Below, one piece after another: positions 50,480-63,048 of a stretch of 64,000 nt of DNA. The stretch comes from Candidatus Edwardsbacteria bacterium RifOxyA12_full_54_48 (GTDB lineage: Bacteria > Edwardsbacteria > AC1 > EtOH8). How positions within the stretch are numbered: position 1 is the first letter of the stretch; each line of letters starts with the position of its first letter. The notes below the pieces were generated by a model. The model had not been told where the DNA came from. It made no database searches and saw only the letters and a program-made list of their open reading frames with translations. The stretch lies in NCBI GenBank assembly GCA_001777915.1, contig MFFN01000007.1, positions 4,807 to 68,806 of the forward strand, read 5' to 3'. Position numbers and translations under genes: made by a program.

Positions 50480-52054
50480 ATGAAGAATTCCATCACTGTT
50501 ATCATCAACGCCGATATATACACCATGAAGGGGCGGCAGAGGGCCAAAGCCCTGGCCTGCGATGCCGGGGGCGGAACGATCCTGGATGTGGGCGGGAACA
50601 GCCAGATACTGGGCAGATACAAGGCCCTGAAGCCCGAGGTCATCGACCTGAAGGGGAAGGTGGTCCTGCCGGGCTTCACCGACTGCCACACCCATTTCTG
50701 CAATTACTGCCTGCTGGCCTCCCGGCCGGACCTGGACGGCATCCGGTTCATCAAGGAATGCCTGCAGGCGGTGGCCAGGTATGTCACCGGGAAAGCGCCC
50801 GGCCAGTGGGTCTTGGGCGGGGGCTGGAACAAGAACCTCTGGAGCGACGGCCGTCTGCCGGCAGCCCAGGACCTGGACACGGTGTCCATCAACAATCCGG
50901 TGATGCTGTGGAGCAAGGACTGGCACACCATCTGGCTGAACTCGGCGGCCATGGTGGCGCTGGACATCCACTCCCAGACCCCGGAGGTCCCCGGCGGAAC
51001 AATCGAGCGCGACGCCAGGGGCAGGCCCAGCGGCATCCTGCGGGAGGAAGCGGCCAATCACTACTATCGCCTGGCTCCCAAGGCATCGATCGAGGAATAT
51101 TCCCAGGCCGTGATCCAGGGCCAGAAGAGATTCGCCCAAATGGGCCTGAGCGGGTTCCATACCATGGAGGGGGTGGAGGAATTCAATGTTCTGCAGTCTT
51201 TGTCGATCCAGAACAAATTATTCTTAAGAGGAACGCTTTACCATAACATCAAGGCCCTGGACGGGCTGGCCTCGGCCGGGATAAAAAGCGGTTTCGGCGG
51301 TCGGAATTTGAAGATCGGAGGGGTAAAACTCTTTGTCGACGGGTCGCTGGGCTCCCAGACGGCATTGATGCTGGAGCCATACCGCAACAGCGCCTCATTG
51401 GGCATGAACACCATGCCGCCCGGGGAACTGCTGGCCCTGATAAGCCGGGCCTCGCAGAACGGCCTGGCCTGCGCCATTCATGCCATCGGCGATGCCGCCA
51501 ACCGCCTGGCGCTGGATACTTTTCAGAAGGCCAAGGATCTCAATAAAGATCTGCGGCACCGGATAGAGCACTGCCAACTGGTCCATCCCGAAGATATTGC
51601 CAGGTTCAAGGAGCTGGGCATCATCGCCTCGGTGCAGCCCATCCATTGCCCGTCCGACCTGGACATCATCGAAAAATACTGGGGAGAGCGGGGGGCCTAT
51701 GCTTACCCGTTCGGCGATCTGTCCAGGAAAAAGGCCAGGGTGGTCTTCGGCTCGGATTGTCCCATCGAAACGCCGGATCCGTTCCGGGCCATTCAGGCGG
51801 CCGTCGCCCGGCAGAGGATCCCGCCGGACCGTCCGCCGTTCCATCCGGAGCAGAAGATGTCGGTCTGGAACTGCATCAAGGCCTATACTGCCGATGCCGC
51901 CTATGCCTCGGGGGATGAGGGCTGGAAGGGGACTTTGGAGCCCGGCAAGGCGGCGGACTTTATCTGCCTTTCGGAGGATATTTTCCAGGCAAACCCGGAG
52001 GAGATACATAAGATAAAGGTGGAGAGGACATTCATCGGCGGGAGAGAGATTTAA
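50480..52054 (+). CDS. amidohydrolase-family (Amidohydro_3-like) metal-dependent hydrolase
   Basis: PGFTDCHTHF metal-binding start, HAIGD, and IEHCQL motifs. Confidence 0.75.
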   Translation: MKNSITVIINADIYTMKGRQRAKALACDAGGGTILDVGGNSQILGRYKALKPEVIDLKGKVVLPGFTDCHTHFCNYCLLASRPDLDGIRFIKECLQAVARYVTGKAPGQWVLGGGWNKNLWSDGRLPAAQDLDTVSINNPVMLWSKDWHTIWLNSAAMVALDIHSQTPEVPGGTIERDARGRPSGILREEAANHYYRLAPKASIEEYSQAVIQGQKRFAQMGLSGFHTMEGVEEFNVLQSLSIQNKLFLRGTLYHNIKALDGLASAGIKSGFGGRNLKIGGVKLFVDGSLGSQTALMLEPYRNSASLGMNTMPPGELLALISRASQNGLACAIHAIGDAANRLALDTFQKAKDLNKDLRHRIEHCQLVHPEDIARFKELGIIASVQPIHCPSDLDIIEKYWGERGAYAYPFGDLSRKKARVVFGSDCPIETPDPFRAIQAAVARQRIPPDRPPFHPEQKMSVWNCIKAYTADAAYASGDEGWKGTLEPGKAADFICLSEDIFQANPEEIHKIKVERTFIGGREI

Positions 52055-52076
52055 AATATTAATTATTGGGGGTTAT

Positions 52077-52688
52077 ATGAGAAATACAATAATATTCGTA
52101 ATCATCGCAACAATATTTTATTCGTGCGATAAAATAGAAGAAAATAATAATACAAAAGTGGATATTAAAAGGAATACGCAAACTATACAAGATTCAACAA
52201 TATATTGTGCTTTAAAATACAATCTTGAAATTTTTACAATGGCACACAGTACATCAAATAATATTGATTCTATTATAAAGTATTATGAATTAAATGAAAA
52301 TAATAAAATTGAAAGCAAAGCAAAGTCATTTCCGGAAACGCAAGAAGATGAACATCTTTTAAATACATTCATTGGTATAATTATGAAAGGGAAATTAAAT
52401 GTTACATATATAATAAAAATGACGCTGATTAATAAAAACAATGCTGAACTAGGGGAGGTGTTTATTGATGTTCTTGCAAAACATTGGCAAAACCCAGAGA
52501 AAGATTTCATTAAGGCCGTTATCAGCTTGCCAGATTCAGAGTGTGCAAGAATTATTTATAGCACAATTCCGGAAGAGCCAAAAGAAGTAAAAGAAATTAT
52601 AAAAAAGGTAGATAAATTATCGGAAATAAAAAATCTAAAAGGCTATGATTTATTAAAGAAAATATTAATTGAATTAGCTAATAGATAA
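52077..52688 (+). CDS. hypothetical lipoprotein (AT-rich orphan)
   Basis: Lipobox IFYSCDK, Asn/Lys/Ile-rich, no recognisable family. Confidence 0.5.
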   Translation: MRNTIIFVIIATIFYSCDKIEENNNTKVDIKRNTQTIQDSTIYCALKYNLEIFTMAHSTSNNIDSIIKYYELNENNKIESKAKSFPETQEDEHLLNTFIGIIMKGKLNVTYIIKMTLINKNNAELGEVFIDVLAKHWQNPEKDFIKAVISLPDSECARIIYSTIPEEPKEVKEIIKKVDKLSEIKNLKGYDLLKKILIELANR

Positions 52689-52800
52689 TATATTACCCCG
52701 GCGACGGCTGATCCGCAGCATCCTTGGCCACGGCCTGCAATTCCTTCCTGCATTTTATATTCACTTTGCTCATCAACGCCAATCAGCACTTTATGTGGGT

Positions 52801-52884
52801 GTCGCATTAGCTCTGCTGCTGAATAAAGAAGGCCGTTAGGAATTTGGCATTGTCTGAGCAAAGCGAGTTTGTCAAATTTAGGCC
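52801..52884 (+). repeat. repeat module A, copy 1
   Basis: An 84-nt unit GTCGCATTAGCTCTGCTGCTGAATAAAGAAGGC..TTAGGAATTTGGCATTGT.TGAGC.AAGCGAGTTTGTCAAATTTAGGCC. It recurs at 53468-53551 with about 5 differences. Confidence 0.8.
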
Positions 52885-52973
52885 TTCGGTCTTAAGGCTT
52901 CCGGGCAGAGGTATAGCGACAGGTTCTCTTTGCCACTTTCTCTTCAAAGAGAAAGTGGGGAACCATGGACCCT

Positions 52974-53175
52974 CTTACTTTTCTGCAGGCCAGAAAAGTA
53001 ACAAAAGAACCTTGTCCGCCCGGCAATTTCCGGCAGGAATGATACTCACGGACTAAATTCCTTGACCGGGGCGGGGAGATAAGCTCTGCAATGAATTTTT
53101 CACGCCCGTTTTGCTGGGGCAAAATTGCCGAAGGCGGGGAACCGAGTACCTAGGTCGCATCAGCTCTGCTGCTGA
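52974..53175 (+). repeat. repeat module D, copy 1 (~202 nt)
   Basis: Starts with the hairpin TTACTTTTCTG..CAGAAAAGTAA and ends ...GGTCGCATCAGCTCTGCTGCTGA. It aligns along its length with 53281-53489. Confidence 0.75.
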
Positions 53176-53236
53176 CGAGCTTTTGACCTCATCCTTCCCT
53201 CTCCTAATGCTTTATGAGAGGGGTAGGGGAGAGGTG
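53176..53236 (+). repeat. repeat module C, copy 1
   Basis: CGAGCTTTTGACCTCATCCTTCCCTCTCCTAATGCTTTATGAGAGGGGTAGGGGAGAGGTG (CCCTCTCC/GAGAGGGG hairpin). The second copy is at 53586-53646. Confidence 0.75.
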
Positions 53237-53280
53237 CGGGACAAAAAAGAAAAAGAACAGCATAATTCCCCAAAACGTGC

Positions 53281-53489
53281 CTTACTTTCTCTTGTGACCA
53301 AGAGAAAGTAACAAAGAGAAGTCTTGCCCGCCCGACAATTTCCGGCAGGAATGATATCCCCGGGCTAAATTCCTTGACCAGGGCTGGGTGCTATGCTCTG
53401 CAATGAATTTTCACGCCCGCTCCCGCCATAGCAAAATTGCCGAAGGCGGGGGAACGGGTAATGTCCGGTCGCATTAGCTCTGCTGCTGA
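53281..53489 (+). repeat. repeat module D, copy 2 (~209 nt)
   Basis: See copy 1. Here module A (53468-53551) is fused to or inserted at its 3' end before module C. Confidence 0.75.
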
Positions 53490-53551
53490 ATAAAGAAGGC
53501 ACTTAGGAATTTGGCATTGTTTGAGCGAAGCGAGTTTGTCAAATTTAGGCC
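53468..53551 (+). repeat. repeat module A, copy 2
   Basis: See copy 1. Confidence 0.8.
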
Positions 53552-53585
53552 GACGTCATAGGACTGCCAAGCAGAGGTTTAGCGA

Positions 53586-53646
53586 CGAGCTGTTGACCTC
53601 ACCCTTCCCTCTCCTAATGCTTTAGGAGAGGGGCAGGGGAGAGGTG
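53586..53646 (+). repeat. repeat module C, copy 2
   Basis: CGAGCTGTTGACCTCACCCTTCCCTCTCCTAATGCTTTAGGAGAGGGGCAGGGGAGAGGTG. Confidence 0.75.
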
Positions 53647-53688
53647 TTATAAGAGAAAGCGGAGGCTGGTTTTGAAAGAAAATAACAA

Positions 53689-53712
53689 AGGGACGATCAA
53701 ATGATCGTCCCT
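53689..53712 (-). terminator. terminator hairpin downstream of tRNA-Met
   Basis: AGGGACGATC-AAAT-GATCGTCCCT. On the minus strand it is followed by a T-rich run (TTGTTATTTTCTTTC). Confidence 0.65.
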
Positions 53713-53766
53713 TAAATATTCCTGGCGCCCGCTCAAGGCGGACTACTGCCCAGCGAGAAGTCAAAC

Positions 53767-53842
<76 letters not shown>

Positions 53843-53919
53843 ACAAAGTGCGGTAATGATAACATATCGATAGAGGGTTAGTCAATATCTTTAATGCCCG
53901 CAATGCGGCAGATCCTGGC

Positions 53920-53948
53920 TTGACATGCCGCGCCGGGGTTGTTATAAT
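53920..53948 (+). promoter_or_regulatory. consensus sigma-70 promoter (TTGACA-17 nt-TATAAT)
   Basis: TTGACA at 53920-25, 17-nt spacer, TATAAT at 53943-48, 37 nt before ATG 53985. Confidence 0.65.
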
Positions 53949-53984
53949 CATATGAAATTTAATGAATAACATTGATATCCAGAT

Positions 53985-55073
53985 ATGAAAAAGAACATTT
54001 TAATTTCGGCTTTCCTTGCCGGGCTTGTCTCCCTGGCCCTGGCCGGCTCATTCGGGAAACAGCCCAAACCAGCCATCCAGAAAGGCCCCTACCTGTCCTG
54101 GGACGACGATCTCCGGACCACCATGACCGTCAGCTGGGAGACCAATACTCCTGTTCCCGGGAAACTGGCCTACGGACCCCGGGGTAAAATGAACTACATC
54201 CTGCGGGACGACCAAGCCGGGACCCTGCACCACTTGAGGATAAAAGATCTCAAGCCCGACACCCGCTACTATTACCAGTTGCTGAACCTGTCGGCCCCGG
54301 TCTGCAGTTTTAAGACCGCACCCCGGGAGATGCGGGATTTCAAATTCGTCATCTACGGCGACACCCGGACCTTTCCGGAGCAGCACAAAAAGGTGATCGC
54401 GGCCATAACCCAATACAACCCGGAGTTCCTGATCCACACCGGGGATTACATCCAGGACGGGCGGGTATGGGGCATGTGGCAGGAGTTCTTCGACGCCAGC
54501 CGGCCGTTCTCCTCCTTTATCCCTCTGATGACGGTGATCGGCAACCACGAACGGACCTGCGACAACTATGTGAAGCTGTTCGCCCTGCCCGGCAATGAAA
54601 GGTGGTATGCCTTCGATTATCTGAATGTTCACTTCATCATATTGAACAACGAAGAAAACTACCAGAAAGATTCCCAGCAATACCGGTGGTTCGAGGCCGA
54701 GATAAAACGATCCCGGCCGCTCTATAAATGGCTGTTCGTCCTCCAGCACCGCCAGACCTACTCCTCTGGCAAGCGGGGCAGCGACCAGGATATCCTGGAG
54801 AACCTGGAGCCGCTGTTCAGGAAATACCGGCCGGATGTGGTGTTCTGCGGGCACGAGCATTTTTACGAAAGGCAGCGGCGGGGCGGCGTCAACTATATCA
54901 TCACCGGCGGGGGCGGGGCCCCGCTGTACGACGTCAATCCAGGGGATTCCACCTTCCATGCCGAATCCAGCCTGCACTACTGCCAGGTCGAGGTCAGCGA
55001 CAGCGCCGCCAAGGTGCGGATGGTCCGGGTGGACGGCAGTTCGCCGGACAGTTTGGTGCTGAAGGCCAGATAG
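53985..55073 (+). CDS. metallophosphoesterase (purple-acid-phosphatase-like), secreted
   Basis: Signal peptide and a PAP-type N-terminal beta domain (MTVSWETN). Motifs GDTR, GDYIQDG, GNHE and GHEHFYER. Confidence 0.8.
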   Translation: MKKNILISAFLAGLVSLALAGSFGKQPKPAIQKGPYLSWDDDLRTTMTVSWETNTPVPGKLAYGPRGKMNYILRDDQAGTLHHLRIKDLKPDTRYYYQLLNLSAPVCSFKTAPREMRDFKFVIYGDTRTFPEQHKKVIAAITQYNPEFLIHTGDYIQDGRVWGMWQEFFDASRPFSSFIPLMTVIGNHERTCDNYVKLFALPGNERWYAFDYLNVHFIILNNEENYQKDSQQYRWFEAEIKRSRPLYKWLFVLQHRQTYSSGKRGSDQDILENLEPLFRKYRPDVVFCGHEHFYERQRRGGVNYIITGGGGAPLYDVNPGDSTFHAESSLHYCQVEVSDSAAKVRMVRVDGSSPDSLVLKAR

Positions 55074-55243
55074 TGAAACAGGGTATTGCAAATGACTCAA
55101 GAAAAACCTGATTCCCAGGTAAATAGAATCGGACTGATAGCTGAATTTTGCTCAAATGCCAGCCGCGGTCAAGTATTTGTCTATTGATAGGGGCTTGTTA
55201 ATGTCGAAAAATATCGCTGTTCAAATCTGAAACGGAGAATTTG

Positions 55244-55819
55244 ATGAGAACATTTATTTCAATTATACTCTTATCGGCAGGGCTGCTTATCACGGCCACC
55301 TCTGCCGCCGGGGTGCTTAACTTCAAGCTAAAACCGCTGGAGGGGAAAAAGAAGGTCGAGCTGGCCAGGGTGCTGGAAACCGGCCCGGCCCTGATAGCCT
55401 TCTGGGCCACCTGGTGTCACCCCTGCCAGGAGGAGCTGATCCACATCCAAAAGCTTTACCAGATGTACGCCGACAGCGGGATGTCATTCTACGCCGTCTC
55501 CATCGACGACGCCAAGACCGCCGGCAGGGTCAAGGCGGTGGCCAAAGGGAAGCGGTTCACCCTGCCGATACTGCTGGACCCCGAGCAGGAGGCGATGAGG
55601 TCCTTCAGCCTGATCAACGTTCCCGGGGTCTATATCCTGGGCCGGGACGGGAAGCTGCTTTATCAGCATACCGGCTATAAGCCGGGAGACGAGGCGGCCT
55701 TGGAGGAGAACGTCAGGACGATCCTCAAACTCGCTCCGGGACCGACCGCTCCGGCCGCCGGTGATTCGACAGCCTGCGGGGTGGATTCTTCCTGCTGCCC
55801 GGTCAAGGAGGAAAAATGA
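55244..55819 (+). CDS. TlpA-family thiol-disulfide oxidoreductase (periplasmic redoxin)
   Basis: Signal peptide and the FWATWCHPCQEE CxxC motif. Confidence 0.8.
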   Translation: MRTFISIILLSAGLLITATSAAGVLNFKLKPLEGKKKVELARVLETGPALIAFWATWCHPCQEELIHIQKLYQMYADSGMSFYAVSIDDAKTAGRVKAVAKGKRFTLPILLDPEQEAMRSFSLINVPGVYILGRDGKLLYQHTGYKPGDEAALEENVRTILKLAPGPTAPAAGDSTACGVDSSCCPVKEEK

Positions 55820-57888
55820 GATTTAAAAAGGCCCTGGCGACGGTGGTGCTGCCCATCTGCTTGGCGTTGTCCCTGACCAGTTGCGGCAAGAAACTTCCCA
55901 CCGCGGTGATTTCAGACCAGGGGTATCCCCGCACAGTGCTGGTGGAGCTATTCACCTCCGAATTCTGCACCAACTGCCCGACGGCCGATCGGGCCGCCGA
56001 ACGCCTGGCCGCCGAGATGGGTGATTCCCTATGTCTGGTCGAAATGCATCCCAATAATTTCCTGTCGCTGGGTGACAGCCTGGGGACTGCGGCGGCCGAC
56101 ACCCTGGCCGGTGACTACCAATCCGGCCTATCGGTGACAGGACTTCCCTTCTTCTCCTGCGACGGGCTGGAGAATATGCTGGGAACCTCGGTCGACGACG
56201 AGGCCACCTATCAAAGCTACCGCCAGCTGGCGGATATCCGCAAGATCATCAAAAGCCCATTGAAACTGAACCTCGCCGCCCAGCTGGACCAGGATGCCAT
56301 AATCTACTCCGCCCAGATAACCGCCGGCGGTTCTGTGCCGCAAAACGGCGATCTGGGGCTGGTCCTGCTGGTGGTGGAGGATTCGGTCAGCGCCTACGGC
56401 AAGGTGTTCCGTTATGTGGCGCGTTCGCTGGCCCCCAATACTGAAGGCGACCGGCTAGATATTCTGCCGGCATCGACAGTTTCCCGAGCGGGCAGCATCA
56501 TAAAGAATTCCGGGTGGCTGCCCTGGCGGCTGTCCCTTATTGCTTACGTACGCAACAATGACACCAGGGAGATCGTCCAGGCGGCCAGGGTCCGCATCTA
56601 TGCCGCCACCACCGCCCCGGCAGCGCCCGCCTTGAATCTGCCGGTTGATGATGCGGTAAATCTGGCCCTGAGCCCGACCCTGAGCTGGCTGGCCAGCAGC
56701 GGCGCGGCCAGCTACACCCTGCAGTACGACACCGACAGCCTGTTCGGCGGGGCGGTATCCCAGAGCGGACTGACCGGGACCAGCCTGCAGATAAAAGGCC
56801 TCGGTAACGCCACCACCTATTACTGGCGGGTAAACGCCAGCAACAATGCCGGAGTATCCGGGTGGTCGGCGATCCGTTGCTTTACCACCACCGCCACTGC
56901 TTTGCCGGTTAAGCCGGTTCTGAATGCGCCGGCGAACGGCGACACCGGCGTCAGCAAAAGTCCCACTTTGATCTGGACTGCCAGCAGCGGGGCTTCAAAC
57001 TACGGACTGCAGGTGGCTACCAACAATTCTTTCCATCCCGCCAGCATGATCTATTCCCAATCAGGACTGACCGGCACCGGCCAGTCGATCCTGGGGCTTG
57101 ATCCCGGGATCGACTATTACTGGCGGGTCAATGCCTCCAATATCGCCGGGACATCAGCCTGGTCGGAGACCTGGTCCTTCACCACCACTACCAATCCGGC
57201 CCCCGAACCTCCGGTCTTGGTCTGGCCGGCCAACGGCGAGCTGAACTCCGGCACCAGTCCGGCGCTAAGCTGGAGTTCCAGCTACGGGGCCTACAGCTAT
57301 GCCCTGCAGGTCTCGCCCAGCAGCGACTTTCGGAGCCTGGTATACTATCAAAGCGGATTGCCCGATACCAGCCGCTCCGTTGCCGGCCTTGACTCCCTGA
57401 CCACCTATCACTGGAGAGCCAACGCCTCCAACGTTTACGGAGCCTCCGGCTGGTCCGATGCCTGGACCTTCACCGATGCCAGGGGGTACGGCTTCTCCCG
57501 GCTGATCTCGCCGGACTCGGCCACCAGGCTGCCGGACACCATCATCAGCTACAGCCTGTCCGACCCGGAAACCCCGGAGCTGGGGTTCCATATCTATCTT
57601 GCCAATCTCTCTTCCAAGATGAACATCTATGCCCAGGCCCCCACTTCGCTGAACTCCGATCCCCTTTTGTTCTGGGGATTCCTATGCACCGAAACCGGCT
57701 GCCAGGGGCCCAACGGGATCGCCACTGCAGTATTCAATGCCGGGACCACCCAGCACTGGACGGTGCATTTTAACTTCAACACCTTGCCGCCTCCGGAAGG
57801 ACTGCATTCCTTGATATTAAAGTTATGGGCCGCCGACAATCCGTCGCATATCATGACCCGTCGGCTGTATCTGGAGGTGCTGCCGTGA
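55816..57888 (+). CDS. lipoprotein: thioredoxin-fold (DUF1223/Omp28-like) N-domain + three Fn3-like repeats + C-terminal domain
   Basis: Lipobox LSLTSCGK. VLVELFTSEFCTNCPTADRA resembles the ELFTS.GCSSCPPAD motif I remember for DUF1223. There are three ~97-aa repeats (SPTLSW..SGA.SY.LQ...YYWRVNASN..G.S.WS) at about 56608-57480. Confidence 0.6.
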   Translation: MRFKKALATVVLPICLALSLTSCGKKLPTAVISDQGYPRTVLVELFTSEFCTNCPTADRAAERLAAEMGDSLCLVEMHPNNFLSLGDSLGTAAADTLAGDYQSGLSVTGLPFFSCDGLENMLGTSVDDEATYQSYRQLADIRKIIKSPLKLNLAAQLDQDAIIYSAQITAGGSVPQNGDLGLVLLVVEDSVSAYGKVFRYVARSLAPNTEGDRLDILPASTVSRAGSIIKNSGWLPWRLSLIAYVRNNDTREIVQAARVRIYAATTAPAAPALNLPVDDAVNLALSPTLSWLASSGAASYTLQYDTDSLFGGAVSQSGLTGTSLQIKGLGNATTYYWRVNASNNAGVSGWSAIRCFTTTATALPVKPVLNAPANGDTGVSKSPTLIWTASSGASNYGLQVATNNSFHPASMIYSQSGLTGTGQSILGLDPGIDYYWRVNASNIAGTSAWSETWSFTTTTNPAPEPPVLVWPANGELNSGTSPALSWSSSYGAYSYALQVSPSSDFRSLVYYQSGLPDTSRSVAGLDSLTTYHWRANASNVYGASGWSDAWTFTDARGYGFSRLISPDSATRLPDTIISYSLSDPETPELGFHIYLANLSSKMNIYAQAPTSLNSDPLLFWGFLCTETGCQGPNGIATAVFNAGTTQHWTVHFNFNTLPPPEGLHSLILKLWAADNPSHIMTRRLYLEVLP

Positions 57889-59399
57889 GATATTTTGTTT
57901 TAACTGTTTGTCTTATGGCCTTGGCCGGCGAAGCCGCGGCCTGGGACCTTTCCGGCGGCAACCAGGCGGCCATCTGGGTCTCCCAGGCCGATACCGACAG
58001 CCTCTACAATGTGCTGCATTACCGGGAAGGGTGCGACCTGCGGCTGTCCGGCGATCTCAAGGATCACATCAAGCTTGACGCCGGGCTGAAGTTTTTATAC
58101 GACCAGGAGCGCTGGGACGACCAGCCGGTGTTCTCCGGGATCTCCCGGCGGTATCTTCAGCTGAAGACCGAAAATCTATCGGCCAGGGCCGGGACCTATT
58201 ACGCCACTTTGGGGCGGGGCCTGGTGCTGAACTGCGTCAACCAGCAGGCGGCCAAGGTCGACCGGTATCTGGACGGCGGCCTGGCCTCGGCTTCCTGGGA
58301 AGACCTGGGCGATGCCCGGCTGCTGTTCGGCCGGATCATGGAAAACACCGTGGAGCTGGACACGGCCAAGACCTATTTCGGGACCGAGATAAAGCTGACC
58401 AGGTTATCTTCAGCAACAGTAGGATTGGCCTATCTGAGGTCAAATGCTGCCGGGCCGGCTTTGGACCCTTCCTTCGGCAAGCCGGCCGACGAGCAATACA
58501 GCGGAAGCCTGGGCGGAACGCTCGGCCCGGTGGACCTTTACGGGGAGTACGCCGGCCGGCGCACCTACGGGCGGCTGTCCCCTTCGGCCGGCTGGGTGGG
58601 GATAGAGGATGTCAACGGCCACGCCTTTTACGGCAGCCTGACGGCCGCCTATGCCGGGCTGGGAGCAATGATGGATTTTAAAAAATATCGGGACTTCGAC
58701 GCCGCCATAAATGCGCCGCCGCCCTGCAACCGGGAGGGCCGGCTATTGAACAACGGGCAGGACGAGTATGGCTTTCAAACCGACCTGACGGCCACCCCCT
58801 GGGCTTGGCTGGAATTGCACGGTAATGCATCCTGGGCAAGGACCAGGGACCAGAGGGAGGATATAATGTCAATTGAAGGCCTGTCGTATTCCGGCAGCCA
58901 AAAATGGCAGGATGTTTTTGTGGAGGGCCGGTGGGAGGTCCGGGAGAACCTTCTCCTCAATGCCGAGGGACGGCTGAGACGGGAGGACAACCTGCAGCCC
59001 GATATCATCAGAAAAAAATATATGGGGGCCTCGGCCGGGATGGTATGGAAATACCATGGCTTCCGTACCCTGTCGGTCAAAGCCGGAGGCAACCGCTACA
59101 GGAATATCTATGATATGAGAAGGCTTTATTATGACGAGGTCCTGGCCGAGCTGGGCTGGGTTCCTTTTGCCTGGCTGAATGTCTTTGCCAATGCCGATCT
59201 GGCCGACAAGCCCGTTGCCGAGTACGACGGCAAGAAAAGCTGGGGCGAGGCCGGATGCGCCATAGATTTCGACCAGGGCCGCCAGCAGCTGAAAGTATCG
59301 GCCGGCCGGACCAAGGGCGGATTGGTCTGCTCCGGCGGGTTCTGCCGGTGGGAGCCGGCCTTTAAGGGATTCAAGGCCGCTTGGGAATGGAGTTTCTGA
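57885..59399 (+). CDS. putative outer-membrane beta-barrel protein
   Basis: GTG 57885 overlaps the upstream TGA (GTGA). Signal peptide LMALAGEAAAW. The composition alternates beta-strand-like segments and the terminus is AAWEWSF (aromatic C-terminal residue). CSGGFCRWEPAF motif. Confidence 0.55.
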   Translation: MRYFVLTVCLMALAGEAAAWDLSGGNQAAIWVSQADTDSLYNVLHYREGCDLRLSGDLKDHIKLDAGLKFLYDQERWDDQPVFSGISRRYLQLKTENLSARAGTYYATLGRGLVLNCVNQQAAKVDRYLDGGLASASWEDLGDARLLFGRIMENTVELDTAKTYFGTEIKLTRLSSATVGLAYLRSNAAGPALDPSFGKPADEQYSGSLGGTLGPVDLYGEYAGRRTYGRLSPSAGWVGIEDVNGHAFYGSLTAAYAGLGAMMDFKKYRDFDAAINAPPPCNREGRLLNNGQDEYGFQTDLTATPWAWLELHGNASWARTRDQREDIMSIEGLSYSGSQKWQDVFVEGRWEVRENLLLNAEGRLRREDNLQPDIIRKKYMGASAGMVWKYHGFRTLSVKAGGNRYRNIYDMRRLYYDEVLAELGWVPFAWLNVFANADLADKPVAEYDGKKSWGEAGCAIDFDQGRQQLKVSAGRTKGGLVCSGGFCRWEPAFKGFKAAWEWSF

Positions 59400-59434
59400 G
59401 GGAAATTTAGCAGGTAAAATCGCGAAATAGTCAT

Positions 59435-59471
59435 AGCCAAAGGCCCGGTTTTAACCGGGCCTTTGGCTTTC
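59435..59471 (+). terminator. rho-independent terminator
   Basis: AGCCAAAGGCCCGG-TTTTAA-CCGGGCCTTTGGCT followed by TTT. Confidence 0.8.
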
Positions 59472-59505
59472 CCTTCGAACCATTTTTGCTAGGCTCCTTC
59501 TTTTC

Positions 59506-59534
59506 TTGACAACCCAAGGGCCCGCTGATATAAT
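59506..59534 (+). promoter_or_regulatory. consensus sigma-70 promoter (TTGACA-17 nt-TATAAT)
   Basis: TTGACA at 59506-11, 17-nt spacer, TATAAT at 59529-34, 43 nt before ATG 59577. Confidence 0.65.
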
Positions 59535-59576
59535 CCTACTATCAGTTTCCGATCAATTGTTTTACAGTTTAAATCT

Positions 59577-60664: not shown

Positions 60665-62092
60665 ATGAATATAAGAAGGTCCATCATTGCCGGAAGCTGG
60701 TATCCGGGAGAAGCCGATAAGCTATCGGCTCAGATAAATAAATATCTTGATGCGGCAAAGAAGGCCGAAAGCGATGGCGTGTTGACGGGCATCATCGTCC
60801 CCCATGCCGGGTACCTGTACTCCGGACCGACCGCGGCCTATGCCTACAAGAACATCAATCCTGAAAACATCTCCACCGTTATCATGGTGGGTCCCAGCCA
60901 CAGCGCCTATTTTGAGGGGACGGCGGTCTATGGCTTCGGTGCCTGGGAGACGCCGCTGGGTAAGACCGAGATCGACTCCAAGTTGGCCGAAGAGATAATT
61001 TCCCAGGACCAGAAATACATCAATGACAACCCCGGGGCCCATGCCAAAGAACATTCACTGGAGATACAGCTCCCGTTCCTGCAGTCCGTGATGCACTCTG
61101 GATTTAAGATAGTGCCGATAATGCTCTACGATCAGTCACTGGCCTCCTGCGATCGCCTGGCTCAGACCATAGCCGGGGCGGTCAAGGGACGGGACGATGT
61201 CCTGCTGCTGGCCTCCAGCGACCTGTCGCACTACCATTCCCAGGCCGAGGCGAAAAGGCTGGATAAATTGGTGATGGATGCCGTGGGTAAATTTGATCCC
61301 GAAAAATTAGCCGGTGACCTGGCCTTTGAAAAATGCGAGGCCTGCGGAGGCGGTCCGATGGTGACGGTGATGCTGGCCTGCCGCTATCTGGGGGCGGACA
61401 GGTCCGTGGTCTATGACTACCGGACCTCCGGCGATGTGACCGGGGACAAGGGCCAGGTGGTGGGATATCTGGCAGCGGGGCTCTATAATACAAAAAACAA
61501 AAAAGAAAAAATCAAAAAACAAATAATAGAAGACGATAAATTAACACTGGAGGAGAAAAGAGAACTTTTCCGGATAGCGCACCAGTCGATCGAGGCTGAG
61601 GTCAGAGGACTGCCCAAGCCGAAGTTCACACCGCTGACCCCCAGGCTGGCCGAACTACGGGGCGTCTTCGTCACCCTGAAGGAAAGCGGCAATCTGCGGG
61701 GCTGCATCGGATATATAGAGGGCATAAGGCCGCTGTACCAGGCGGTGGCGGAGATGGCGGTGGCGGCGGCCACCGGGGACCCCCGTTTCCCTCCGGTGAC
61801 AACAAGAGAATTACCGGAATTGGAGTATGAGATATCGGTATTGACCCCCAAGAGGCAGATAGATTCGCCGGAAGAGTTCATTGTGGGCAGGCATGGTATA
61901 ATAGTCCAGCGGGGCGGGCGCTCCGGGGTGTTTTTGCCGCAGGTGGCGGCCGAGGAAGGATGGACCCGCGAGGAAACGTTGTCGTATTTATGCCTGCACA
62001 AAGCCGGCCTGCCGGCCGGGGCCTGGAAGGATAAGGAGACGAAATTGTTCGTGTTCGAGGCCGAGGTGATAGAAGGAAAGGATATAAAATGA
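60665..62092 (+). CDS. fusion of AmmeMemoRadiSam system protein B (Memo-like) and protein A (AMMECR1 domain)
   Basis: ATG 60665 follows an AGGAGG RBS (60651-56). Memo motifs are AGSWYPG, IVPHAGYLYSG and GPSH. The AMMECR1 motif is GVFVTLKESGNLRGCIGY. Confidence 0.8.
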   Translation: MNIRRSIIAGSWYPGEADKLSAQINKYLDAAKKAESDGVLTGIIVPHAGYLYSGPTAAYAYKNINPENISTVIMVGPSHSAYFEGTAVYGFGAWETPLGKTEIDSKLAEEIISQDQKYINDNPGAHAKEHSLEIQLPFLQSVMHSGFKIVPIMLYDQSLASCDRLAQTIAGAVKGRDDVLLLASSDLSHYHSQAEAKRLDKLVMDAVGKFDPEKLAGDLAFEKCEACGGGPMVTVMLACRYLGADRSVVYDYRTSGDVTGDKGQVVGYLAAGLYNTKNKKEKIKKQIIEDDKLTLEEKRELFRIAHQSIEAEVRGLPKPKFTPLTPRLAELRGVFVTLKESGNLRGCIGYIEGIRPLYQAVAEMAVAAATGDPRFPPVTTRELPELEYEISVLTPKRQIDSPEEFIVGRHGIIVQRGGRSGVFLPQVAAEEGWTREETLSYLCLHKAGLPAGAWKDKETKLFVFEAEVIEGKDIK

Positions 62093-63048
62093 AAAAAACA
62101 CCATACAGGGTAATTTTTGTCTTAACTTTGATTTGCAGTTTTAACGCTGTTGCCAACGATACGCATATGGGTAGTGTTGGCGGAAATATTTATCCCAGTA
62201 AGAGTAATTCCATCCAAATGGTAAAAGAAAGAATAAATGCAGTAATGTATCATGACAGTTTTACTGTTAGCTGTAAGTTTTGGTTTTATAACCTTGAAAA
62301 ACCCGAATATATTAACGTGGGGTTCCCAGATGCGGTAAATAATAGTGATAGTCCGGCGGCAGATACTTTGCGCAATTTTAAAGTCATTATTAATGGTAAG
62401 CCTGAAGAGATTACACGAGTAAAACAGATTTCAACCGGTTATAACCACGAAACACTCACGAACACGGAGTATTGGTTTACTTGGAAAATGCATTTCCCGT
62501 CAAAAGAGACAGTGTTTGTTGAAAATTATTATACTGGTAGCTACAGCCATAACGCCGGTGGTTTATATTTTGTTAGTTATATAATCGGAACCGGTAGCAC
62601 TTGGCAGGGTTCGATAAAAGATGGGCGAGTCGTTTTCAATCACTCAAATTTGGCAACTAATTATTTTATAAATGATACTTTCCCAGGATATACAAATATT
62701 AAACCCGCATATTATCAAGATAGCGTTGTATATGCTTTTACTAAATATAGACCAAAGGAAAGTGAAATATTGATCGTAGAACTTTATCCGTATTGGGCTA
62801 ACTCAAATATATACGAATTTAAAAAGTATTTAGAGAAAAATAATTATACAAAAAAAGAATTACGTTTAATTCGCAATGAAATATTCGCAAGGCGTGGGTA
62901 TGTTTTTAACGATAAAAGTTTAAATAAATATTTTACCAGTAAAAAATGGTACAAACCAAATAATAATTTCAAAGCATCCATGTTGAATGAGTATGAACAA
63001 AACATGATAAATTATTTATCTCAATTAGAAAAAGAAGCCAATATATAA
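62089..63048 (+). CDS. secreted YARHG-domain protein (AT-rich)
   Basis: Signal peptide. C-terminal LRLIRNEIFARRGYVFNDKSLNKYFTSKKWYKP is the YARHG motif. ATGA overlap with the upstream stop. Confidence 0.7.
   Translation: MKKTPYRVIFVLTLICSFNAVANDTHMGSVGGNIYPSKSNSIQMVKERINAVMYHDSFTVSCKFWFYNLEKPEYINVGFPDAVNNSDSPAADTLRNFKVIINGKPEEITRVKQISTGYNHETLTNTEYWFTWKMHFPSKETVFVENYYTGSYSHNAGGLYFVSYIIGTGSTWQGSIKDGRVVFNHSNLATNYFINDTFPGYTNIKPAYYQDSVVYAFTKYRPKESEILIVELYPYWANSNIYEFKKYLEKNNYTKKELRLIRNEIFARRGYVFNDKSLNKYFTSKKWYKPNNNFKASMLNEYEQNMINYLSQLEKEANI

What the first reader, a model, noticed from the sequence alone, without database searches (positions are those of the whole stretch)
52690..53766. ~1.1-kb non-coding mosaic repeat field next to tRNA-Met
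**Structure**
- This is the longest ORF-free stretch of the window. It is built from reshuffled modules:
  - A (84 nt) at 52801 and 53468
  - D (~205 nt) at 52974 and 53281
  - C (61 nt) at 53176 and 53586
  - a short GCAGAGGT.TAGCGAC linker after each A copy
- In copy 2, module A is inserted between D and C exactly at the shared ...GCTCTGCTGCTGA junction.

**Hairpins**
- Each module contains hairpins: CCACTTTCTCTT-CAAA-GAGAAAGTGG, TTACTTTCTCTT..AAGAGAAAGTAA, TTTTGC-TGGG-GCAAAA and CCCTCTCC..GGAGAGGG.
- In module A, the stem GAATTTGGCA/TGTCAAATTT pairs fully only if G-U wobbles are allowed on the plus strand. That is weak evidence for a plus-strand RNA.

**Possible identities**
- a family of miniature non-autonomous elements piling up at a tRNA integration hotspot
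- a structured ncRNA cluster
- remnants of recombination
Basis: seen in the sequence. Interest (0 to 1): 0.55.

Follow-up and report, generated by a model that had tools for sequence, protein, structure and literature searches.

The report
Mosaic non-coding repeat field, Edwardsbacteria
The 1.1-kb gene-free stretch beside tRNA-Met is a real cluster of reshuffled hairpin-rich modules from an undescribed composite repeat family of Candidatus Edwardsbacteria; the modules are well conserved between species, yet the whole cluster is missing from some close relatives, so it is an interesting but probably dispensable genome element.

Summary
The repeats are real, non-random and not an assembly artefact: nine independent assemblies give the identical sequence.

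The field has three co-oriented units built from about ten modules:
- an upstream module (h2 hairpin, D-body, E stem-loop);
- a 96-121-nt stem-loop J-A-J';
- 3' hairpins (h1, C, sp1).

The same modules, 80-97% identical, occur in at least ten other loci of Edwardsbacteria-type genomes. Most are not next to a tRNA, and several lie in variable or defence islands. There the h2-D-E module sits 50-105 nt upstream of small accessory genes, and C-type hairpins follow genes.

Orthologous loci in close relatives differ:
- two carry rearranged fields (L010, L029);
- two carry no field (L028, L033).

L029 shows that the window's J|C1 junction is a deletion of A-J', not an insertion of A.

J-A-J' folds about 15 kcal/mol better on the plus strand. 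Covariation is thin.

There is no match in Rfam, phage or plasmid collections.

Best reading: a lineage-specific composite intergenic repeat family, analogous to BOX, NIME and BIME elements. It turns over by recombination between shared modules, and the modules probably act as portable expression or RNA-structure signals. Transcription and mobility are untested.

The parts
52696..52716 (+). Remnant CCCCGGCGACGGCTGATCCGC of the unit that follows the tRNA-Met 3' fragment in relatives (integration scar sequence)
   Evidence: Fourteen nt are 100% identical to L033 5679-5692. The same motif follows the duplicated tRNA fragment in L010, L032 and L033.
52731..52800 (+). 'lead': conserved non-coding stretch that precedes J in the window, L010, L029 and L021. 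Its left 36 nt match a minus-strand ORF of the field-less relative L033.
   Evidence: Frame-shifting indels between copies argue against coding.
52801..52920 (+). J-A-J' copy 1: long stem-loop. The outer stem is GTCGC/GCGAC plus GCTCTGC/GCAGAGG. The inner hairpin is GAATTTGGCA/TGTCAAATTT.
   Evidence: Covariance-model score 141.9 bits. Folding energy -46.9 kcal/mol, z -3.8 on the plus strand, against -31.5 on the minus strand.
52921..52958 (+). h1: flank TTCTCTTTG plus hairpin CCACTTTCTCTT-CAA-AGAGAAAGTGG. It is an inverted relative of h2 with its flank.
   Evidence: Inverted repeat I2 (z -4.9).
52975..53007 (+). h2a hairpin TTACTTTTCTG-CAGG-CCAGAAAAGTAA plus CAAAAG; start of upstream module 1
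   Evidence: Both arms differ from h2b in a compensating way.
53008..53099 (+). D-body 1. Conserved blocks: CAATTTCCGG, ATGATA, CTAAATTCCTTGACC, GGGCGGGG, GCTCTGCAATGAATT.
   Evidence: As RNA it is not significantly structured (z -2.0).
53105..53139 (+). E stem-loop 1 (CCCGTT...GCAAAATTGCCGAAGGCGGG)
   Evidence: The same box lies 50-105 nt upstream of start codons in L024 and L017.
53154..53175 (+). Solo J: the 5' arm only; A and J' have been deleted
   Evidence: 18.6 bits. L029 has a full J-A'-J' at the corresponding place.
53176..53236 (+). K (CGAGCTTTTGACC) plus C1 hairpin, with a pyrimidine-rich 5' arm and a purine-rich 3' arm
   Evidence: -26.9 kcal/mol, z -2.8. It is 98% identical to L029 5205-5357.
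53237..53263 (+). sp1 remnant (ACAAAAAAGAAAAAGAACAG): the 3' arm of a hairpin that is complete in L017 and L019
53282..53322 (+). h2b hairpin TTACTTTCTCTT-GTGACC-AAGAGAAAGTAA plus CAAAGAGAAGT; start of upstream module 2
   Evidence: z -7.0
53323..53411 (+). D-body 2. It is closer to the copy in another species (L013, 93-94%) than to D-body 1 (88%).
53415..53458 (+). E stem-loop 2
   Evidence: -26.0 kcal/mol, z -3.1
53468..53586 (+). J-A-J' copy 2
   Evidence: Covariance-model score 127.2 bits. Folding energy -41.1 on the plus strand against -27.5 on the minus strand.
53587..53646 (+). K plus C2 hairpin
   Evidence: -36.4 kcal/mol, z -5.3
53688..53713 (-). Canonical intrinsic terminator (hairpin plus T-run) of the minus-strand tRNA-Met gene; right-hand border of the variable slot
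   Evidence: Conserved in L010, L028, L029 and L033.
53723..53766 (+). About 44 nt inserted between the terminator and the tRNA. It starts with TGGCG (compare tRNA 3' TGGTG) and is a small integration scar that is absent in L029.
   Evidence: Compare
53767..53842 (-). tRNA-Met (CAT)

Best explanation
The field is a cluster of three co-oriented, partly decayed copies of a composite non-coding unit. The unit belongs to a repeat family specific to Candidatus Edwardsbacteria and close relatives.

**A complete unit reads, on the plus strand:**
1. An upstream module: an h2 hairpin, a ~150-nt sequence-conserved D-body, and an E stem-loop.
2. A payload.
3. A 3' hairpin (C, h1 or sp1).

In other loci the payload is a small accessory gene. 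In the window it is the 96-121-nt stem-loop J-A-J', or just its 5' arm.

**Shown**
- The modules are shared between loci and species.
- Fields are gained, lost and rearranged between close relatives. The breakpoints lie at module borders.
- The inner hairpin of J-A-J' is homogenised within a genome.

**Inferred**
- The family spreads and turns over by homologous or illegitimate recombination and short-patch gene conversion between shared modules. It probably travels with accessory-gene cassettes and with elements that integrate at tRNA-Met, rather than by its own transposase.
- The modules work as portable expression signals. D-E would be a promoter or 5' leader, J-A-J' a plus-strand structured RNA, and the pyrimidine/purine hairpins transcript-end or stabiliser structures.
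- On this reading the window would produce two small plus-strand RNAs, of roughly 140 nt and 240 nt.
For: **The family is real and spans several genomes**
- An exact-pattern scan with J found two contigs of Edwardsbacteria DeMMO3_1 and one other MAG. A metagenome scan found seven further real loci.
- The covariance model scores 83-142 bits on 12 distinct copies, including L027, which was not used to build it.
- Over about 80 kb of these other loci, the only nucleotide similarity to the 64-kb window is the field itself.
- Modules are co-oriented in every field checked.

**Position relative to genes**
- The h2-D-E module lies 50-105 nt upstream of the ATG of three different small genes.
- C-type hairpins directly follow stop codons.

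**D-body looks like a sequence signal, not an RNA structure**
- About 70% of its columns are invariant over 8 copies, with conserved blocks around a six-nt variable stretch of fixed length.
- It has no significant RNA structure (z -2.0 and +0.7). This fits a DNA-level signal: TTGACC, 19 nt, TGCAAT.

**J-A-J' favours the plus strand**
- It folds 14-15 kcal/mol better on the plus strand. The alignment consensus energy is -30.4 on the plus strand; a second pair of alignments gave -22.6 plus against -15.7 minus.
- One stem pair covaries between U-A and C-G, and U-G alternates with U-A at another pair.
- The inner hairpin is swapped wholesale while the outer stem is kept.
- The h hairpins keep pairing through changes in both arms, including a matched 2-nt deletion in both arms in L024.

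**Turnover at the orthologous locus**
- L028 (flanks 91-94% identical) and L033 have no field.
- L029 and L010 have differently composed fields.
- D2 is 93-94% identical to a copy in another species but only 88% identical to its neighbour D1.
- The inner hairpin type (A or A') is the same in both copies within a genome. The J' signature (TATAGC or TTTAGC) stays tied to position.
Against: - No transcription data are available, so promoter, RNA ends and strand are inferred.
- The proposed -35/-10 pair has an unusual 19-nt spacer, and the promoter scan did not flag it.
- The C, h1 and sp1 hairpins lack the T-run that canonical terminators in this organism have.
- Covariation in J-A-J' is thin: one or two compensatory pairs against two uncompensated stem mismatches. 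The sequence is so conserved, even in unpaired parts, that structure cannot be proven.
- Copy number per genome looks low, at a few fields.
- Absence of the field from close relatives argues against any essential function.
Confidence: 0.5

Rival explanations
1. Classical non-autonomous transposable elements (MITE, BOX-type or REPIN-like), mobilised in trans by a transposase or a RAYT-type enzyme, have inserted repeatedly and nested into one another at this spot.
For: - J and J' form 16-nt imperfect terminal inverted repeats around A.
- h1 and h2 form inverted doublets that include their flanks, TTCTCTTTG and CAAAGAGAA.
- The field is present or absent at orthologous loci.
- Module sequences are highly similar across loci and genomes that share no other nucleotide similarity with the window.
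Against: - No target-site duplication was seen on inspecting the flanks of 12 J-A-J' copies.
- J occurs alone, without J' (53154).
- Modules are always co-oriented within a field, which random insertion would not give.
- Only two loci with an exact J occur in a whole representative genome, and there is one field in 64 kb.
- No transposase gene lies in the annotated ~20 kb around the field (about 10.8 kb upstream and 10 kb downstream).
- The hairpins lack the GTAG head of REP sequences.
Confidence: 0.15
2. The modules are sites for a site-specific recombinase that exchanges cassettes, in a way analogous to an integron or to dif modules. h1 and h2 would be core sites (10-12-bp inverted arms around a 3-6-nt spacer). 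J-A-J' would be a folded site like attC, with conserved ends and a variable centre.
For: - The h hairpins have the architecture of a recombinase core site.
- J-A-J' has conserved outer boxes, unpaired spacers, a G-G mismatch and a variable centre, and is 96-121 nt long.
- Truncated h2 copies in L017 and L027 break right after the spacer.
- Related loci are arrays of small variable genes next to defence genes.
Against: - The integron R'' and R' consensus (RYYYAAC / GTTRRRY) is absent.
- No integrase or Xer-type gene appears in the annotated ~20 kb around the window field, and none is annotated in L022-L027.
- Spacer sequences differ between h copies, which would block recombination between them.
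- The strain-to-strain cassette replacement between L022 and L024 breaks at gene ends, not at modules.
- In the window no ORF lies between successive sites.
Confidence: 0.1
3. The field is only the decaying, functionless remnant of an element that integrated at the 3' end of tRNA-Met.
For: - In L010 an exact 21-nt copy of the tRNA-Met 3' end lies 766 nt from the tRNA and brackets the field.
- L033 has one scar unit, and L032 two tandem units, each flanked by the same 21-nt fragment.
- The window keeps scar remnants at 52696-52716 and 53723-53766.
- The slot also holds a foreign-looking gene of about 28% G+C.
- The field is dispensable.
Against: - The window itself has no second copy of the tRNA end.
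- The same modules occur in at least eight loci without any tRNA. There they sit in ordered positions relative to genes.
- Modules are 88-97% identical between loci that share no other nucleotide similarity with the window, and the hairpins keep pairing through double changes. Neutral decay would not give this.
Confidence: 0.15
4. The field is a conserved cluster of bona fide small-RNA genes with a specific cellular function. J-A-J' would be a trans-acting or protein-binding RNA, duplicated in tandem.
For: - J-A-J' folds markedly better on the plus strand.
- Its unpaired stretch CUGCUGAAYMAAGAAGGCCGU is strongly conserved in 12 copies.
- The inner hairpin type is the same in both copies in each genome sampled with two copies (window, L010/L011, L013, L029), which could indicate a specificity determinant.
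Against: - The field is absent from two close relatives.
- One copy in the window is truncated to its 5' arm.
- No canonical terminator follows the copies.
- There is no Rfam match even at E = 10.
- Covariation is too thin to show selection on structure.
Confidence: 0.1

Closest known systems
BOX elements of Streptococcus pneumoniae and the BOX-type elements of S. suis (composite repeats; Croucher et al. 2011, PMC3049150)
   Same: - Both are built from several distinct sub-sequences in particular orders.
- Both vary in size through module gain and loss.
- Both are predicted to fold as stem-loops when transcribed.
- Both lie in intergenic regions next to genes and are thought to influence neighbouring expression.
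- S. suis has seven module types in different permutations.
   Different: - BOX elements occur as many dispersed copies per genome. They have terminal inverted repeats and make target-site duplications.
- Here the copies are few and clustered in fields. No duplications were seen.
- There are more module types (about ten).
- One module, D-E, is a long sequence-conserved stretch without significant structure that sits upstream of genes.
BIMEs / REPINs (mosaics of REP palindromic units, mobilised by RAYT transposases)
   Same: - Both are mosaics of short palindromes and linker motifs in intergenic DNA.
- The h1-h2 pairs are inverted doublets, like REPINs.
   Different: - The h hairpins lack the GTAG head of REP sequences.
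- They occur in a few copies rather than hundreds.
- No RAYT gene could be linked to them.
- Modules such as J-A-J' and the D-body are much longer than REP units.
Neisserial intergenic mosaic elements (NIMEs)
   Same: - Both are composite intergenic arrays of 50-150-bp repeat units separated by short inverted-repeat sequences.
- Both are associated with variable regions and integration sites.
   Different: - The sequences are unrelated and the phylum is different.
- NIMEs flank surface-protein genes and are bounded by dRS3 repeats. No equivalent single bounding repeat exists here.
Integron attC sites and cassette arrays
   Same: - J-A-J' is an imperfect palindrome of 96-121 nt with conserved ends, unpaired spacers and a variable centre.
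- Related loci are arrays of small variable genes.
   Different: - There are no R''/R' core sequences.
- No IntI gene is nearby.
- The window has no ORF between sites.
- The sites are not at the 3' end of each cassette.
Integration scars and cis-mobilisable remnants at tRNA genes
   Same: - The position is at the 3' end of tRNA-Met.
- Relatives carry exact 21-nt duplicates of the tRNA end and tandem scar units.
- A foreign low-G+C gene sits in the same slot.
   Different: - The window has no flanking direct repeat and no integrase.
- The repeat modules themselves also occur away from tRNAs.

Membership tests
MITE / BOX-type composite repeat | Terminal inverted repeats | tested here: inconclusive
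   J and J' form 16-nt imperfect inverted repeats around A. The composite unit as a whole has none, and a solo J exists at 53154.
MITE / BOX-type composite repeat | Target-site duplication at insertions | tested here: not met
   The flanks of 12 J-A-J' copies were printed and inspected by eye; no direct repeat was seen. The repeat finder on the L011 field found no flanking direct repeat.
MITE / BOX-type composite repeat | Many dispersed copies per genome | tested here: inconclusive
   An exact J occurs at two loci in the DeMMO3_1 genome. The 64-kb window has one field. One 792-kb contig has two fields. No sensitive whole-genome scan was possible.
MITE / BOX-type composite repeat | Modular composition in recurring orders; stem-loops if transcribed | tested here: met
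   The order E-J-A-J'-(h1|C|sp1)-h2-D-E recurs in the window, L011, L013, L014, L027 and L029. Folding z-scores are -2.8 to -7.
MITE / BOX-type composite repeat | Presence/absence polymorphism at orthologous sites | tested here: met
   L028 and L033 lack the field. L010 and L029 have variant fields.
REP / BIME / REPIN | Imperfect palindrome of 20-40 nt with a conserved 5' GTAG | tested here: not met
   All 25 h hairpins start YYACTTT; none has GTAG.
REP / BIME / REPIN | Associated RAYT (TnpA_REP) gene in the genome | not testable with these tools
   The whole genomes could not be scanned for proteins. None is seen in the annotated ~20 kb around the field.
Integron cassette array (attC) | R'' RYYYAAC and R' GTTRRRY core sites | tested here: not met
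   The ends of J-A-J' are GTCGC...GCGAC in all 12 copies.
Integron cassette array (attC) | Integron integrase adjacent to the array | tested here: not met
   No tyrosine recombinase appears among the Pfam annotations of genes in the annotated ~20 kb around the field.
Integron cassette array (attC) | Folded imperfect palindrome with conserved ends and a variable centre, 57-141 nt | tested here: met
   Length is 96-121 nt. The outer stems are invariant, and the inner hairpin is swapped between types A and A'.
tRNA-targeting integrative element (or its remnant) | Direct repeat of the tRNA 3' end flanking the element | tested here: not met
   The window has only the tRNA's own copy. The feature is met in the orthologous locus L010 (two exact 21-mers 766 nt apart) and in L032 and L033.
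tRNA-targeting integrative element (or its remnant) | Integrase gene next to the tRNA | tested here: not met
   None in the window or in L010, L028, L029 or L033.
Any Rfam 15 RNA family | Covariance-model match at or near the gathering score | tested here: not met
   Only the tRNA passes. In 52500-54000 at E up to 10, every other hit is far below its gathering score.

The most novel reading that the evidence does not exclude
The modules could form a previously undescribed 'non-coding cassette' system of Edwardsbacteria variable and defence islands. A shared, regulated promoter/leader module (h2-D-E) would drive either small accessory genes or a new structured plus-strand RNA (J-A-J'). The inner hairpin of that RNA is kept identical among all copies within a genome (type A or A'), and could act as a specificity determinant for a genome-specific partner, such as a protein, a kissing RNA or a recombinase. 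The field beside tRNA-Met would then be an active pair of small-RNA genes, not debris.
Probability: 0.2. Interest if true: 0.65.

Novelty: new member of a known kind. Interest (0 to 1): 0.4.

Why it matters
- Composite intergenic repeats (BOX, BIME, NIME) are known from a few cultivated pathogens and enterics. This would extend the kind to an uncultivated candidate phylum from groundwater.
- It gives a clean natural series for studying how such mosaics are built and lost: locus without field, locus with field, and locus with a rearranged field.
- Practically, it explains a 1.3-kb gene-free gap. It also warns annotators that these modules mark hypervariable slots, such as accessory-gene and defence-island borders and the tRNA-Met integration site.
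- If D-E is a portable promoter and J-A-J' is an expressed RNA, the family would provide a first handle on regulation in a phylum with no genetics.

Tried and rejected
- **Assembly artefact:** rejected. The sequence is identical in nine independent assemblies.
- **Known RNA family:** rejected. Rfam was searched at gathering scores over the whole window, and at E up to 10 over 52500-54000.
- **Phage or plasmid origin:** no match in the phage or plasmid BLAST collections, nor in three scans of viral contigs.
- **Coding potential of 'lead' and J:** rejected. Small minus-strand and plus-strand ORFs are not conserved in frame between copies, and 1-nt indels separate them. However, part of lead matches a minus-strand ORF in L033.
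- **Sigma-54 or ECF-type promoters in A, F and E:** I inspected the sequences by eye. The spacings do not fit consistently, so I dropped the idea.
- **Diversity-generating retroelement template/variable repeat pair for D1/D2:** rejected. On inspecting the aligned copies, the differences between D1 and D2 are not adenine-specific.
- **CRISPR-related element:** one field lies upstream of type I-C cas3/cas5, but other fields do not. I treat this as coincidence.
- **Chance hits:** L015 and L020 from the metagenome scan are chance matches inside unrelated sequence.
- **Neighbouring small proteins:** searches against PADLOC, PHROGs and Pfam gave nothing informative. One Pfam call failed because I gave wrong coordinates.
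- **Second RNA alignment:** with 12 sequences, MAFFT mis-aligned the short A' variants. I relied on the 11-sequence alignment A4.
Full report
**1.

- The region between the stop of a 203-aa ORF (52688) and the next plus-strand gene (53985) is the longest ORF-free stretch of the window. It is 1296 nt; the next longest is 358 nt.
  - A, 84 nt, 95% identical.
  - C, 61-63 nt, 93-94% identical.
  - D core, about 98 nt, 88% identical.
  - The junction GTCGCATYAGCTCTGCTGCTGA ('J'), three copies against 0.01 expected by chance.
- The short 'linker' after each A, GCAGAGGTWTAGCGAC, is the inverted partner of J. J-A-J' is therefore one long stem-loop.
- The modules occur nowhere else in the 64-kb window.
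- Nine contigs from independent assemblies (JGI, NCBI, ENA; several assemblers) carry exactly the same 2.1 kb. This rules out an assembly artefact.
- Source-given protein names identify the organism as Candidatus Edwardsbacteria.

**2. Anatomy of the window's field, plus strand**

In order:
1. Scar remnant, 52696-52716.
2. 'lead', 52731-52800.
3. J-A-J' copy 1, 52801-52920.
4. h1 hairpin, 52921-52958.
5. h2a hairpin, D-body 1 and E stem-loop 1, 52975-53139.
6. Solo J, 53154-53175.
7. K and C1 hairpin, 53176-53236.
8. sp1 remnant.
9. h2b hairpin, D-body 2 and E stem-loop 2, 53282-53458.
10. J-A-J' copy 2, 53468-53586.
11. K and C2 hairpin, 53587-53646.
12. Tail.

To the right follow the tRNA's own canonical terminator on the minus strand (53713-53688), a 44-nt scar, and tRNA-Met (53767-53842, minus strand).

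**3. The family extends well beyond this locus**

- An exact scan for J over one genome per species found two contigs of Edwardsbacteria DeMMO3_1 and one other MAG.
- A metagenome scan, with a pattern chosen to skip the window's own sequence, found seven real loci and two chance hits.
- Homologues of a 108-aa gene that follows two of these fields led to further module-bearing loci.
- Across about 80 kb of these loci, the only nucleotide similarity to the window is the field itself, at 80-97% identity.
- Modules are co-oriented within every field checked.
- Only the orthologous locus L010 has a tRNA next to the field.
- Several fields lie in variable regions. One lies upstream of type I-C cas3/cas5. 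Others lie in arrays of small unknown genes bordered by restriction-modification, TIR, PycTM and helicase genes.
- Nothing similar exists in the phage, plasmid or viral collections, or in Rfam.
- A full-text search found no paper that describes repeats in this phylum.

**4. What the modules look like functionally**

*Position relative to genes.* In L024 and L017 the h2-D-E module ends 50-105 nt upstream of the start codons of three different small genes. C-type pyrimidine/purine hairpins directly follow stop codons. A 'unit' is thus an upstream module, a payload and a 3' hairpin. In the window the payload position is taken by J-A-J' or by solo J.

*D-body.* It is remarkably conserved: about 70% of columns are invariant over eight copies. 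Fixed blocks (CAATTTCCGG, ATGATA, CTAAATTCCTTGACC, GGGCGGGG, GCTCTGCAATGAATT) surround a six-nt variable stretch of constant length. Some copies carry a hairpin insertion just downstream. It is not significantly structured as RNA (z -2.0 and +0.7). This pattern suits a DNA-level signal such as a regulated promoter (TTGACC, 19 nt, TGCAAT). That is inference only, and the consensus scan did not flag it.

*J-A-J'.*
- It folds at -46.9 kcal/mol (z -3.8) on the plus strand against -31.5 on the minus strand. Copy 2 gives -41.1 against -27.5.
- The alignment consensus energy is -30.4 on the plus strand. A second pair of alignments gave -22.6 plus against -15.7 minus.
- One stem pair alternates between U-A and C-G, and a neighbouring pair alternates between U-G and U-A.
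- The inner hairpin is replaced wholesale (GAATTTGGCA... against CCCCGCC...GGCGGGG) while the outer stem is kept.
- Against this, two copies carry uncompensated stem mismatches. Unpaired stretches are as conserved as paired ones, so structure is not proven.

*h hairpins.* They come in three classes whose arms differ in a compensating way. One case has a matched 2-nt deletion in both arms. This argues for selection on, or self-templated repair of, the palindrome.

**5. Dynamics at the orthologous locus**

Five configurations of the slot between the amidohydrolase gene and tRNA-Met were recovered from relatives whose flanks are 87-94% identical:
- **Window:** 203-aa low-G+C lipoprotein gene plus the field.
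- **L029-L031:** the same gene, with a field of different composition: lead, J-A'-J', h1, h2a, another body, J-A'-J', K-C, sp1, h2b, another body.
- **L010:** a radical-SAM gene, a 21-nt tRNA fragment, then a field.
- **L028:** the 203-aa gene but no field. Window 52701-53679 is replaced there by 155 nt that contain only C-like hairpins.
- **L033:** the radical-SAM gene, a minus-strand ORF and an integration scar; no field.

The first 36 nt of 'lead' match that ORF in L033. The field's left junction therefore lies within about 30 nt of the start of J.

The block K-C-sp1-h2b, which is 98% identical to window 53174-53326, is preceded there by a complete J-A'-J'. The window's J|C1 junction is therefore a deletion of A-J'.

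Two further observations show how the copies evolve:
- D2 is closer to a copy in another species (93-94%) than to D1 (88%). The two D copies are therefore old subfamily members, not a recent local duplication.
- The inner hairpin type is the same in both copies in each genome sampled with two copies: A/A in the window and in L013, A'/A' in L029 and in L010/L011. The J' signature stays position-specific: TATAGC in copy 1 and TTTAGC in copy 2, in both the window and L029. This points to short-patch conversion between copies.

**6. The tRNA connection**

- The 3' end of tRNA-Met is an integration hotspot in this lineage. L010 carries an exact 21-nt duplicate 766 nt away. L033 has one scar unit, and L032 two tandem units, each flanked by the same fragment.
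- L029 shows the pristine terminator-tRNA junction.
- The window has a 44-nt scar at 53723-53766 and a remnant at 52696-52716. It has no second copy of the tRNA end and no integrase gene in the annotated ~20 kb around the field (about 10.8 kb upstream and 10 kb downstream).
- The hotspot explains why this slot is variable. It does not explain the module family, which mostly lives elsewhere.

**7. Interpretation**

The best-supported reading is a lineage-specific composite intergenic repeat family. It is comparable in kind to BOX, BIME/REPIN and NIME elements (features taken from PMC3049150).

- Shown: modules are conserved across species, while the fields they form are gained, lost and reshuffled quickly.
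- Inferred: turnover is by recombination and gene conversion between shared modules, and by hitch-hiking with accessory cassettes and integrating elements.
- Inferred: the modules serve as portable expression and RNA-structure signals.
- Classical transposition is not supported: no target-site duplication was seen, a solo J exists, orientation is strict and copy number is low. It is not excluded either.
- An integron-like recombination system is a weaker rival because the core sites and the integrase are missing.
- Pure debris is unlikely, given cross-species conservation and compensated hairpins.
- An essential small-RNA locus is unlikely, given its absence from close relatives.

**8. Verdict**

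The finding is real and more than a local curiosity. It is most likely a new member of a known kind (composite interspersed repeats) in an unstudied phylum, and the locus itself is dispensable. Interest is moderate. It would rise if transcription of J-A-J' from D-E were shown, or if a dedicated recombinase were found.

Noticed in passing
window 52077-52688 (+): A 203-aa ORF with a lipoprotein-like N-terminus in a region of about 28% G+C (52000-52499), in a genome of about 60% G+C. It has no Pfam, PHROG or PADLOC match. It starts 22 nt after the amidohydrolase stop codon. In relatives L010 and L033 the same slot holds a radical-SAM gene instead, so the slot exchanges foreign genes.
   Followed up: partly
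window 53723-53766; L032 1-380; L033 5617-5800; L010 3245-3265: The tRNA-Met 3' end carries integration scars of different sizes in different strains. The window and L028 have a ~44-nt insert that begins TGGCG/TGGTG. L033 has one ~150-nt unit and L032 two tandem units of ~190 nt, each flanked by the 21-nt tRNA fragment. L029 has none.
   Followed up: partly
window 53920-53948 (+) and 53885-53856 (-): A perfect TTGACA-17-TATAAT promoter with an upstream TG lies ahead of the metallophosphoesterase gene. A TTGACT-18-TATCAT site lies ahead of tRNA-Met. This organism therefore uses canonical sigma-70 signals, which makes the atypical signals inside the field stand out.
   Followed up: no
window 55241-59576: The genes for the AhpC-like, fibronectin-type-III and DUF6029 proteins are absent at this position in L010 and L029. 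In L028 and L032 they are replaced by ArgR, thioredoxin and peptidase M1 genes. This is a second variable slot just downstream of the tRNA.
   Followed up: no
window 62000-63000: A second low-G+C stretch (0.30-0.40) overlaps a gene annotated with a YARHG domain. No field modules are present there.
   Followed up: no
L014 1-250 (- strand) and L021 4630-4860: Tandem repeats of roughly 21 nt (by eye) follow small helical-protein genes next to fields. They read as heptad-like peptide repeats in one frame. Whether they are coding, or iteron-like, was not resolved.
   Followed up: no
L012 950-1250 (- strand) and L017 600-640: Palindromes with a GTAG head (for example GTAGGGGAGGGTTTAAAACCCTCCCCTAC) resemble classical REP sequences. 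They lie upstream of the fields and form a separate repeat family in the same genomes.
   Followed up: no
L022-L027 (6001-6327 and surroundings); L016 1201-4400: Fields sit beside strain-variable arrays of small unknown genes and defence genes (DUF3800, ResIII helicase, cNMP-binding TIR, PycTM, MmeI-type methyltransferase, Z1, type I-C cas3/cas5). Between L022 and L024, which are 97-99% identical, a 2.25-kb three-gene block replaces a 0.85-kb block exactly between a stop codon and the next start codon.
   Followed up: partly
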